A stretch of DNA of 64,000 bases from Chitinophagales bacterium. Its GTDB lineage: Bacteria > Bacteroidota > Bacteroidia > Chitinophagales > LD1. Position numbers and translations under genes: made by a program. Below are positions 19,418-19,606 of the stretch, piece after piece. The stretch spans positions 215,933 to 279,932 of the forward strand of contig JBGAUW010000003.1 of NCBI GenBank assembly GCA_044228435.1, in the 5' to 3' direction. The notes beneath the pieces are model-generated. The model saw only the letters and a list, made by a program, of their open reading frames with translations. It was not told where the DNA came from and did not search any database. Numbering within the stretch: position 1 is the first letter of the stretch; each line of letters begins with the position of its first letter.

Positions 19418-19606
19418 TTACTCTTTGTAAAGCTTACGTCCGCCATAAATAAGGCCTGCGCCCAAAAGCAAAAACACGGCCCCGTCAATAGGCACACCAT
19501 CTGGCGGTGCAGGTGGCGGTGGTGGCGGTGGTGGTGCATACAACAATGCTGTAGTAGCCAGCAATATAGTCGCCAATACTGTCCTCAATATAAATCGCTG
19601 TTTCAT
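19418..19606 (-). CDS. 62-aa secreted mini-protein: signal peptide + poly-Pro + P-I-D / TM / basic C-terminal sorting-like signal
   Basis: MKQRFILRTVLATILLATTALLYA | PPPPPPPPAPPDGV-PID-GAVFLLLGAGLIYGG-RKLYKE. A terminator lies 23 nt downstream and a TAnnTTTG-like box upstream. Confidence 0.6.
   Translation of the reverse strand: MKQRFILRTVLATILLATTALLYAPPPPPPPPAPPDGVPIDGAVFLLLGAGLIYGGRKLYKE

What the first reader, a model, noticed from the sequence alone, without database searches (positions are those of the whole stretch)
19418..19606. Mini-protein that is nothing but sorting signals: signal peptide + Pro8 + P-I-D / TM / RK C-terminal signal
The 62-aa product reads MKQRFILRTVLATILLATTALLYA-PPPPPPPPAPPDGV-PID-GAVFLLLGAGLIYGG-RKLYKE. 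The C-terminal 25 residues have the tripartite layout of exosortase/archaeosortase-type sorting signals of the PEP-CTERM class. That layout is a short signature, a Gly-rich hydrophobic helix and a basic cluster, here with a Pro-Ile-Asp signature. I believe a P-I-D variant has been described for Bacteroidota, but I cannot verify that here. After removal of both signals only ~17 residues, mostly proline, would remain. That points to a tiny anchored or modified peptide, or a decoy/regulatory substrate of a sorting enzyme. The gene has its own TAnnTTTG-like box and a strong terminator. The Pro run is encoded by a slippage-prone (GGTGGCGGT)n repeat at 19511-19537. No exosortase-like gene is present in this window.
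Basis: partly seen in the sequence, partly recalled or inferred. Interest (0 to 1): 0.62.

Follow-up and report, generated by a model that had tools for sequence, protein, structure and literature searches.

The report
PID-CTERM mini-protein, an exosortase-type substrate
This real, conserved 62-residue gene encodes little more than an export signal, a proline run and a 'PID-CTERM' sorting tag, a curated but unpublished family that elsewhere in Bacteroidota sits directly in front of its own processing enzyme (exosortase X), whereas here no such enzyme lies within 64 kb.

Summary
Window 19418-19606 (-) encodes the 62-aa protein as read, with a Bacteroidota-type promoter and a strong shared terminator.

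- **Family.** Its last 25 residues match NCBIfam NF046080, 'PID-CTERM protein-sorting domain', at 34.7 bits against a cutoff of 26. This is the same family as Pfam PF28310.
- **It is a gene.** It is under purifying selection, with dN/dS of 0.05-0.3 and only synonymous changes against contigs 92-94% identical in DNA.
- **The tiny size is normal for the family.** A tail-only profile found 2021 cluster representatives. Of the best 150, 143 are 100 aa or shorter (median 71.5).
- **Link to exosortase X.** In other Bacteroidota the mini-gene lies directly upstream of exosortase X (NF046081) in 71 of 72 testable loci. That enzyme keeps an invariant Cys, Arg and His.
- **How this copy differs.** All 71 linked copies carry CxxxxC (mostly CWPPPC) before PID. 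The window copy has no cysteine. It sits in a conserved trmB / alkyltransferase-like / mini-gene block, and no exosortase lies within 64 kb.

Most likely it is exported, cleaved at PID by an exosortase encoded elsewhere, and its roughly 17-residue proline peptide is transferred to an envelope acceptor. Cleavage, enzyme and acceptor are all inferred.

Verdict: a member of a curated but unpublished family. Moderate-to-low interest.

The parts
19418..19606 (-). CDS of the 62-aa PID-CTERM mini-protein (stop codon TAA at 19418-19420)
   Evidence: Searches give the ORF. An identical 62-aa protein was called in two public assemblies. dN/dS is 0.12-0.32 against 8 orthologues. Only synonymous differences separate it from contigs 92-94% identical in DNA.
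19535..19606 (-). Signal-peptide-like N-terminus, residues 1-24 (MKQRFILR n-region, hydrophobic core, ...LYA)
   Evidence: Read directly from the sequence. This is the most variable part among orthologues (dN/dS 0.27-0.54), as expected of a signal peptide. The cleavage site was not predicted with a dedicated tool, and Pro at +1 makes the LYA|P site doubtful.
19496..19534 (-). Proline-rich stub, residues 25-37 (PPPPPPPPAPPDG). This is the only 'cargo'.
   Evidence: The proline run is invariant in the closest homologues. It is encoded by the GGTGGCGGT repeat at 19512-19534.
19421..19495 (-). PID-CTERM sorting domain, residues 38-62: V-PID (19484-19492), hydrophobic GAVFLLLGAGLIYGG (19439-19483), basic/polar RKLYKE (19421-19438)
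   Evidence: NF046080 scores 34.7 bits against a cutoff of 26, covering residues 38-61 and profile positions 1-24 of 25. PF28310 is precomputed for the identical protein. Family-wide invariant or near-invariant positions are P, D, G, L, G, Y, G, K, L, Y.
19631..19661 (-). Bacteroidota-type promoter consensus TTTG-N19-TAnnTTTG, 25 nt upstream of the ATG
   Evidence: It is the only exact match in the window. Chance expectation is about 2 per window, so the evidence is its position, not its count. Both boxes are invariant in the two contigs, which are 92-94% identical in DNA overall.
19364..19395 (.). Bidirectional intrinsic terminator hairpin (AAAAACCCGATGGTA/TACCATCGGGTTTTT) between the mini-gene and the convergent histidine-kinase gene
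   Evidence: The 61-nt region folds at -26.4 kcal/mol, z = -7.4, with 0 of 200 shuffles as stable. It is conserved in L001 and L002.
19709..20796 (-). Conserved upstream neighbours on the same strand: trmB-like methyltransferase (20113-20796) and an alkyltransferase-like DNA_binding_1 protein (19709-20116). Synteny partners only; no functional link is shown.
   Evidence: Pfam and NCBIfam assignments. The trmB / alkyltransferase-like / mini-gene order is kept in every locus of this clade examined, while the downstream genes differ.

Best explanation
The gene encodes a genuine member of the PID-CTERM family. This is a dedicated mini-substrate class of exosortase-family (Cys/Arg/His) membrane transpeptidases of Bacteroidota.

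**Proposed pathway**
1. The gene is transcribed from its own TTTG/TAnnTTTG promoter. Translation of the P8-A-PP run is probably EF-P dependent (inferred from general knowledge).
2. The N-terminal signal peptide drives Sec export, and signal peptidase probably removes it (inferred).
3. This leaves a peptide of about 38 residues, held in the inner membrane by the C-terminal hydrophobic segment. RKLYKE stays on the cytoplasmic side and the proline stub on the periplasmic side (inferred from the tripartite layout).
4. An exosortase encoded elsewhere in the genome recognises P-I-D-G at the membrane surface, together with the highly conserved L..AG..YG.[RK]KLY helix and juxtamembrane motif. It cleaves there through a thioester acyl-enzyme intermediate. 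It then transfers the roughly 17-residue proline-rich peptide to a nucleophile such as a lipid head-group amine or a polysaccharide. The tail is discarded. This step is inferred by analogy with archaeosortase A.

**Shown here:** family membership, the status as a real gene, the family-wide mini architecture, and near-obligatory adjacency of the Cys-containing subfamily to exosortase X.

**Inferred:** cleavage, the identity of the enzyme in this genome, and the acceptor.
For: **Membership.** NF046080 scores 34.7 bits against a cutoff of 26. PF28310 is precomputed for the identical protein.

**Real gene.** dN/dS is 0.05-0.22 in the tail, with dS saturated. There are 4 changes in the CDS, all synonymous, against contigs 92-94% identical in DNA.

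**Family architecture.**
- The 120 best full-length homologues are 50-106 aa.
- A tail-only profile against 1.84e9 representatives gives 2021 hits at E<=1e-3. The best 150 have a median of 71.5 aa, 143 are <=100 aa, and the match is always C-terminal.

**Enzyme link.**
- L019 (Aurantibacillus circumpalustris, CP121197) and L020 show a divergent Wzc-like tyrosine autokinase, then the PID mini-gene, then XrtX (NF046081, 174.5 and 177.7 bits against a cutoff of 170), then a weak NF046082 'XrtX-associated membrane protein', then glyA.
- L015/L016 and L021/L022 show the same order.
- 71 of 72 testable metagenomic XrtX loci have a PID mini ORF 3-165 nt upstream on the same strand.
- The cysteine-free poly-Pro mini-protein P0085 lies next to a divergent exosortase (PF09721; XrtX model 115.8 bits) in L017/L018.
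- C87, R128 and H147 are invariant in 17 XrtX sequences. That fits an active enzyme.
- NCBIfam accessions NF046080 to NF046083 (PID_CTERM, XrtX, assoc_w_XrtX, XrtY) are consecutive. I infer from this that they were curated as one system.

**Mechanistic precedent.** Archaeosortase A has a thioester/Cys173 model with a lipid-ethanolamine nucleophile (PMC7157517). 'Dedicated' one-to-one sorting systems are defined by adjacent enzyme and target genes (10.1101/2023.06.07.544157).

**Selection on the motif.** P-I-D-G stays invariant in the unlinked Chitinophagales-type orthologues. That argues a recogniser is still present.
Against: - No exosortase-like ORF lies in the 64-kb window or in any of the 15 related loci of the trmB / alkyltransferase-like / mini-gene type (L001-L008, L010, L011, L014, L103-L106). 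The rest of the genome could not be searched.
- All 71 XrtX-adjacent mini-proteins have CxxxxC before PID, and the window protein has no cysteine. Canonical XrtX may therefore not be its enzyme.
- The helix and cytoplasmic motif are conserved far more tightly than a disposable sorting tail needs to be. A stable, uncleaved partner would fit that equally well.
- No experiment on any PID-CTERM protein or on XrtX exists in the searchable literature.
- Pro at +1 of the apparent signal-peptidase site leaves N-terminal processing uncertain.
Confidence: 0.6

Rival explanations
1. The peptide is an uncleaved partner or pseudo-substrate. It stays as a small single-pass membrane protein. If the signal peptide is not cut, it would be a two-helix hairpin. 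It binds an exosortase-type enzyme or its associated membrane protein through the conserved PIDGG...YG.[RK]KLY segment, and it regulates or scaffolds that complex instead of being transferred.
For: - Position-specific conservation of the membrane helix and cytoplasmic motif holds across very divergent lineages: L8, G12, Y15, G16, K19, L20 and Y21 are near-invariant. Sorting tails that are discarded are usually conserved only in character.
- There is essentially no cargo.
- A dedicated 'associated membrane protein' always follows XrtX.
- Pro at +1 of the signal-peptidase site in this subclade could leave the first helix attached.
Against: - XrtX keeps an invariant Cys, Arg and His, so a catalytic event is expected.
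- One-to-one enzyme and target pairs are exactly how dedicated sorting substrates look.
- Most family members have canonical A-x-A|Q signal-peptidase sites.
Confidence: 0.22
2. The peptide is an orphan membrane-anchored polyproline peptide. In this lineage the gene works without any exosortase. It acts as a tiny type-I membrane anchor that displays a polyproline-II rod in the periplasm as a docking site for another protein, comparable to the proline-rich membrane anchor PRIMA.
For: - It is unlinked from any exosortase in every locus of this clade.
- It lacks the CxxxxC of XrtX-linked copies.
- Pfam's only, very weak, hit is PRIMA1 (9.5 bits).
Against: - The PRIMA1 hit is far below its cutoff of 38.6 and reflects only the proline run.
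- Only 38 of 150 family representatives have a PPPP run at all. P-[IL]-D-G, by contrast, is essentially invariant, so the conserved function lies in the sorting motif.
- A comparable cysteine-free mini-protein is adjacent to an exosortase in L017/L018.
Confidence: 0.13
3. The gene is a phase-variable or contingency locus. The proline-codon repeat slips and switches the gene on and off.
For: The repeat GGTGGCGGT x2.6 lies at 19512-19534. The length of the proline run differs among orthologues, from 7 to 12.
Against: - The unit is 9 nt and therefore in frame, with only 2.6 copies.
- All orthologue differences are whole codons.
- The two contigs have the same run length.
- No frameshifted copy was seen.
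Confidence: 0.03
4. The ORF is a chance ORF and not a gene.
For: It is short (62 aa), of low complexity, and annotated only as 'hypothetical protein'.
Against: - A curated HMM matches above its cutoff.
- There are hundreds of homologues.
- dN/dS is well below 1.
- Only synonymous changes separate it from contigs 92-94% identical in DNA.
- It has its own promoter-like site and a terminator.
Confidence: 0.01

Closest known systems
PID-CTERM protein-sorting domain family (NCBIfam NF046080 / Pfam PF28310) with exosortase X (NF046081) and the XrtX-associated membrane protein (NF046082)
   Same: The C-terminal domain matches above the curated cutoff. The overall architecture is the same: signal peptide, a short Pro/Gly/Asp-rich stub, then PID, a hydrophobic helix and a basic tail. 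The size class is the same (about 60-75 aa), and so is the phylum (Bacteroidota).
   Different: Every XrtX-adjacent copy I looked at (L015/L016, L019-L022 and the 71) has CxxxxC, usually CWPPPC, directly before PID and lies immediately upstream of xrtX, mostly in a Wzc-like-kinase / glyA neighbourhood. The window copy has no cysteine and a pure poly-Pro stub. It sits after trmB and an alkyltransferase-like gene, with no exosortase within 64 kb.
PEP-CTERM / exosortase A (EpsH) system
   Same: It has the tripartite C-terminal signal (Pro-containing motif, hydrophobic helix, basic cluster), an enzyme of the exosortase family, and an association of the enzyme locus with polysaccharide chain-length / tyrosine-kinase genes.
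   Different: PEP-CTERM is one enzyme to many varied cargo proteins. PID-CTERM is one enzyme to one tiny protein without a cargo domain. The PEP-CTERM model did not match this protein at E<=10. The motif is P-I-D-G-G, and the tail carries a specific YG.[RK]KLY motif in place of a generic Arg cluster.
XrtF system of Bacteroidota (TIGR04128 plus the exosortase F-associated protein), required for biofilm and surface colonisation in Flavobacterium johnsoniae
   Same: XrtX proteins score 84-89 bits on the XrtF model, just under its cutoff of 90, and JGI names them XrtF. Both enzymes are about 180 aa and are followed by a small associated membrane protein.
   Different: No substrate is known for XrtF (PMC10936215). 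No XrtF gene was seen near this or any related mini-gene. A link between XrtF and unlinked PID mini-proteins is untested.
Archaeosortase A / PGF-CTERM
   Same: It belongs to the same enzyme superfamily with a Cys/Arg/His active site. Its substrate has a tripartite C-terminal signal, and it is cleaved with replacement of the tail by a lipid anchor. This is the mechanistic template used here.
   Different: It is archaeal, its cargo proteins are large (the S-layer glycoprotein), it serves many substrates, and its motif is different.
Dedicated one-to-one sorting systems such as JDVT-CTERM/MrtJ
   Same: There is one target per genome, encoded next to its processing enzyme. This matches the XrtX-linked PID mini-proteins.
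   Different: The enzyme class is different (a CPBP glutamic protease), and its targets have real domains. The window copy is not adjacent to any enzyme.

Membership tests
PID-CTERM sorting domain (NF046080 / PF28310) | HMM score at or above the curated cutoff | tested here: met
   34.7 bits against a cutoff of 26, E 1.1e-8, profile positions 1-24 of 25. PF28310 is precomputed for the identical protein.
PID-CTERM sorting domain (NF046080 / PF28310) | Domain at the extreme C-terminus with a tripartite layout (motif, hydrophobic helix, basic cluster) | tested here: met
   Residues 38-61 of 62: PID, then a 15-residue hydrophobic stretch, then RKLYKE.
PID-CTERM sorting domain (NF046080 / PF28310) | N-terminal signal peptide, so that the motif reaches the outer face of the inner membrane | tested here: inconclusive
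   A basic n-region and a hydrophobic core are evident and are present in all homologues. No signal-peptide predictor was available. The apparent site LYA|P has Pro at +1.
PID-CTERM sorting domain (NF046080 / PF28310) | Cognate exosortase-family enzyme in the same genome | not testable with these tools
   Only 64 kb of the genome is available and it holds none.
Dedicated exosortase X system (PID mini-gene, XrtX, associated membrane protein) | Mini-gene immediately upstream of xrtX on the same strand | tested here: not met
   No XrtX-like ORF lies in the window or in 15 related loci. By contrast, 71 of 72 XrtX loci have the adjacent mini-gene.
Dedicated exosortase X system (PID mini-gene, XrtX, associated membrane protein) | CxxxxC (CWPPPC) directly before PID | tested here: not met
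   71 of 71 XrtX-adjacent mini-proteins have it. The window protein contains no cysteine.
PEP-CTERM (exosortase A/B targets) | Match to a PEP-CTERM domain model | tested here: not met
   The NCBIfam scan at E<=10 returned only PID_CTERM.
T9SS C-terminal sorting domain (the dominant sorting tag in this window) | Por_Secre_tail or type-B CTD match | tested here: not met
   The Pfam scan of the mini-protein gave no such hit. The neighbouring gene 22081-23571 does have Por_Secre_tail.
PRIMA1-type proline-rich membrane anchor | Pfam PF16101 above its gathering score | tested here: not met
   9.5 bits against a cutoff of 38.6, over the proline run only.

The most novel reading that the evidence does not exclude
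The cysteine-free PID-CTERM mini-proteins that are unlinked from any enzyme make up most of the family's diversity: 132 of the 150 best representatives lack CxxxxC. In this Chitinophagales-type clade they are fixed behind trmB and an alkyltransferase-like gene. They could be the missing natural substrates of an XrtF- or XrtY-type exosortase encoded elsewhere in the genome. XrtF is the nearest relative of XrtX and has the same partner-protein arrangement. It is required for biofilm formation in Flavobacterium johnsoniae, and it has no known substrate.
Probability: 0.2. Interest if true: 0.65.

Novelty: new member of a known kind. Interest (0 to 1): 0.35.

Why it matters
Exosortases are widespread, are linked to biofilm and exopolysaccharide biology, and are biochemically almost uncharacterised. 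A system whose only substrate is a roughly 40-residue peptide with a 17-residue 'cargo' would be about the simplest handle available for working out what an exosortase cleaves and what it attaches the product to. For this window the practical result is an annotation: the 'hypothetical protein' is a PID-CTERM family member. The analysis also yields two testable family-level points. First, CWPPPC-type copies are tied to XrtX, while cysteine-free copies are either unlinked or paired with divergent exosortases. Second, the unlinked copies may point to the unknown substrates of XrtF-like enzymes.

Tried and rejected
- **Literature.** No paper mentions 'PID-CTERM'. A search for 'exosortase' plus 'Bacteroidota' gave nothing relevant. 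The 2012 archaeosortase paper is not held.
- **A tail-only query to the search for homologous proteins.** I replaced it with the full-length profile and with the tail-only representative search.
- **Functional neighbours of the window gene.** The convergent TPR histidine kinase is not conserved next to orthologues, so I rejected it as a partner. The trmB / alkyltransferase-like / mini-gene order is conserved but offers no mechanistic link.
- **The 193-aa gene downstream of the mini-gene in L012.** It has no family hits. By eye it looks like an NfeD-type partner of the adjacent flotillin gene and not an exosortase. That is my reading of the sequence.
- **A same-genome exosortase for MAG GCA_017990735.1.** I looked for locus tag KA149_ among XrtX homologues. 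None of the 120 listed hits carried it, which is uninformative because 548 proteins matched.
- **RNA genes.** Rfam and tRNA scans of the window found nothing.
- **Structure prediction of the 62-aa peptide.** I judged it uninformative and did not run it.
- **Chance ORF and phase variation.** I considered both and rejected them (see the rival explanations).

Full report
**1. The observation**

Window 19418-19606 on the minus strand encodes MKQRFILRTVLATILLATTALLYAPPPPPPPPAPPDGVPIDGAVFLLLGAGLIYGGRKLYKE. A longer TTG-initiated reading of 71 aa exists, but all homologues begin at the MK(Q/K) position.

- **Promoter.** The full Bacteroidota promoter consensus TTTG-N19-TATTTTTG lies 25 nt upstream of the ATG, at 19631-19661. 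It is the only exact match in the 64 kb. Chance would give about two, so only its position counts as evidence.
- **Terminator.** The hairpin at 19364-19395 lies in a 61-nt region that folds at -26.4 kcal/mol (z = -7.4). It is shared with the convergent TPR histidine-kinase gene that ends at 19338.
- **Proline-codon repeat.** The proline run is encoded by 2.6 copies of GGTGGCGGT at 19512-19534.
- **RNA genes.** No RNA family or tRNA overlaps the region.

**2. It is a real gene**

An identical 62-aa protein is called in a Chitinophagales MAG (GCA_017990735.1) and in an ENA assembly. Those contigs are only 92-94% identical to the window in DNA. Even so, the CDS differs at just four positions, all synonymous, and the promoter boxes and terminator stem are unchanged.

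Against eight more distant orthologues dS is saturated (0.7 to >2). dN/dS is 0.12-0.32 overall and 0.05-0.22 in the C-terminal 25 residues. The signal peptide is the least constrained part.

**3. What the C-terminus is**

NCBIfam NF046080, 'PID-CTERM protein-sorting domain', matches residues 38-61 at 34.7 bits against a curated cutoff of 26. The identical protein carries precomputed Pfam PF28310, named PID_CTERM. No PEP-CTERM or T9SS model matches. The only hit in the local Pfam copy is a meaningless 9.5-bit match of the proline run to PRIMA1. No paper in the searchable library mentions PID-CTERM, so the family exists only as database models.

**4. The mini-protein form is the rule**

A profile of 12 full-length homologues retrieved 622 proteins, and the best 120 are 50-106 aa.

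To remove any bias toward small proteins I searched a 33-column profile of the tail alone against 1.84 billion cluster representatives.

- It gave 2021 hits at E<=1e-3.
- The best 150 have a median length of 71.5 aa, 143 are <=100 aa, and the largest is 207 aa. The match is always at the C-terminus.
- About 40 residues precede PID, and that count includes the signal peptide.
- The 13 residues before PID are 30% Pro, 14% Gly and 10% Asp.
- Only 38 of 150 have a PPPP run, and 18 of 150 have CxxxxC.

The conserved core is P-[IL]-D-G-G-x-x-x-L-[LI]-x-A-G-x-x-Y-G-x-[RK]-K-L-Y, with many positions nearly invariant across orders. Named sources are Chitinophagales, Bacteroidales, Bacteroidota and Chlorobi MAGs. 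A Draconibacterium MAG also appears.

**5. The enzyme link**

Two mini-protein look-ups landed next to exosortase-family genes.

- P0085, which is cysteine-free and proline-rich, is followed 86 nt later by a 179-aa PF09721 protein. Its best NCBIfam match is exosortase X at 115.8 bits, below cutoff.
- P0101 is followed by an XrtX-like gene (160 bits against a cutoff of 170) and a weak 'XrtX-associated membrane protein'.

Searching with these enzymes found the NCBI-annotated 'exosortase X' of Aurantibacillus circumpalustris (Sphingobacteriales). In that complete genome and in a 3.7-Mb contig the gene order is as follows:

1. a divergent Wzc-like tyrosine autokinase;
2. the PID-CTERM mini-gene (33.9 and 39.9 bits);
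3. XrtX (174.5 and 177.7 bits, above the cutoff of 170);
4. a 156-158-aa membrane protein that weakly matches NF046082;
5. glyA.

A metagenome scan with an XrtX profile returned 80 loci.

- 71 have a PID-tail ORF 3-165 nt upstream on the same strand.
- 8 end too close to the gene to tell.
- One (L100) lacks it.

XrtX keeps an invariant Cys, Arg and His, the residue types that make up the active site in this superfamily. Cys-173 is the one cited for ArtA; the full Cys/Arg/His triad is from my own knowledge. NF046080 to NF046083 are PID_CTERM, XrtX, assoc_w_XrtX and XrtY. I infer from the consecutive numbers that they were curated together. This fits the published definition of a 'dedicated' one-to-one sorting system.

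**6. How the window copy differs**

All 71 XrtX-adjacent mini-proteins carry CxxxxC (mostly CWPPPC) directly before PID. The window protein has no cysteine.

It is also unlinked. No XrtX-family ORF exists in the window, which extends 19 kb to one side and 44 kb to the other, or in any related locus. The window's only multi-TM ORFs are an acyltransferase-3, a fatty-acid hydroxylase and an H+-PPase fragment.

Instead the gene always follows trmB and a 127-135-aa DNA_binding_1 (alkyltransferase-like) gene. Upstream lies a T9SS-tailed Kazal (often also PKD) protein on the opposite strand in the window and in six of the other loci. Downstream genes differ in every lineage: histidine kinase, collagen-like protein, RecQ, a phosphatase and others. 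Other lineages are also unlinked:

- in a Draconibacterium MAG the gene sits between recA and aroK;
- in a Bacteroidales-type contig it sits beside a probable NfeD/flotillin pair.

P-I-D-G remains invariant in these unlinked copies, which argues that something still recognises it.

**7. Mechanism**

The best-supported reading is Sec export, retention by the C-terminal helix with RKLYKE inside, recognition of PIDG at the membrane surface by an exosortase-family enzyme encoded elsewhere, thioester-mediated cleavage, and transfer of the roughly 17-residue proline peptide to an envelope nucleophile. The analogy is archaeosortase A, where cleavage is coupled to lipid attachment.

The XrtX locus lies beside a Wzc-like kinase in L015/L016, L019 and L020. 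The related XrtF is needed for Flavobacterium johnsoniae biofilms. Both point to a role in the matrix or envelope.

Membership, gene status, architecture and adjacency statistics are shown here. Cleavage, enzyme identity and acceptor are inferred.

The main rival is an uncleaved partner or pseudo-substrate. It is favoured by the unusually specific conservation of the helix and cytoplasmic motif and by the absence of cargo.

One local oddity: the apparent signal-peptidase site in this subclade is LYA|PPPP, with Pro at +1, where relatives have A/S|Q-G or S|V/L. From my own knowledge, Pro at +1 blocks E. coli signal peptidase I. The N-terminal cut may therefore be elsewhere (for example TTA|LL) or absent.

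**8. Verdict**

However, the object belongs to a family already captured in NCBIfam and Pfam, together with its enzyme.

What this analysis adds:
- the mini-protein is the normal form of the family;
- there is a 71 of 72 adjacency figure for XrtX;
- the family splits into CWPPPC copies linked to XrtX and cysteine-free copies that are unlinked or paired with divergent exosortases;
- the window copy sits in a conserved but functionally unexplained trmB / alkyltransferase-like / mini-gene block.

The open, more interesting possibility is that such unlinked copies are the unknown substrates of XrtF- or XrtY-type enzymes. That could not be tested, because the genome-wide scans were exhausted.

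Noticed in passing
window 19709-20116 (-), overlapping trmB (20113-20796) by 4 nt: The 135-aa neighbour has only the MGMT DNA_binding_1 domain. It reads ...VPAHRVL... where methyltransferases have PCHR, so it looks like an alkyltransferase-like (ATL) protein and not an active Ogt. 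It also has a Lys/Ala-rich N-terminal extension. The trmB / ATL / mini-gene order is conserved across every locus of this clade examined.
   Followed up: partly
L023-L102 (XrtX loci), L015/L016, L019-L022: Every PID mini-protein adjacent to exosortase X carries CxxxxC, nearly always CWPPPC, immediately before [IV]P[IV]D[GNS]G (71 of 71). This is a possible disulfide loop and is absent from the window protein. It marks a distinct subfamily.
   Followed up: yes
window 19535-19543 (-), residues 22-24 and +1: The apparent signal-peptidase site is LYA|P, with Pro at +1, in the window protein and in its closest relatives P0002 and P0003. Other orthologues have S|V, S|L, A|G or A|Q-G. The proline run may have expanded up to the cleavage site.
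   Followed up: partly
window 15764-17386 (-): This is a 540-aa secreted protein with six stretches matching the Pfam collagen triple-helix repeat ([12 protein letters not shown]... repeats). A collagen-like gene also lies beside the mini-gene in L103/L104, on the opposite strand.
   Followed up: no
window 22081-23571 (+), and by eye 29546-30919, 31043-33352, 44897-46981, 46984-50589, 33426-39548, 41209-44775: There is a high density of large secreted proteins whose C-termini look like T9SS sorting domains. Only 22081-23571 was confirmed, as Por_Secre_tail plus Kazal. T9SS tails, not exosortase-type tails, are the common sorting tag in this window.
   Followed up: partly
L100 3983-4528: This is the single XrtX-like locus without an upstream mini-gene. 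The exosortase gene starts 3 nt after a 1320-aa ORF that has no PID tail, while the associated membrane protein and glyA still follow. It shows that enzyme and mini-gene can become unlinked.
   Followed up: partly
L017 1801-3191 / L018: A divergent 179-aa exosortase scores below the cutoffs of XrtX, XrtY and XrtF alike. It follows a cysteine-free PID mini-gene, and a 282-aa sugar-kinase-like protein follows it in place of the usual small associated membrane protein. It may be an unnamed exosortase clade.
   Followed up: partly
window 19373-19639 (+): This is an 88-aa antisense ORF (…WRCRWRWWRWW…). It is simply the reverse-complement reading of the proline-codon repeat. The synonymous-only substitution pattern supports the minus-strand frame.
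   Followed up: yes
L012 10306-12371: In a Bacteroidales-type contig the mini-gene is followed by a 193-aa membrane protein with no family hit (possibly NfeD-like) and then by a flotillin (FloT/Band_7) gene. No link to the mini-gene was examined.
   Followed up: no
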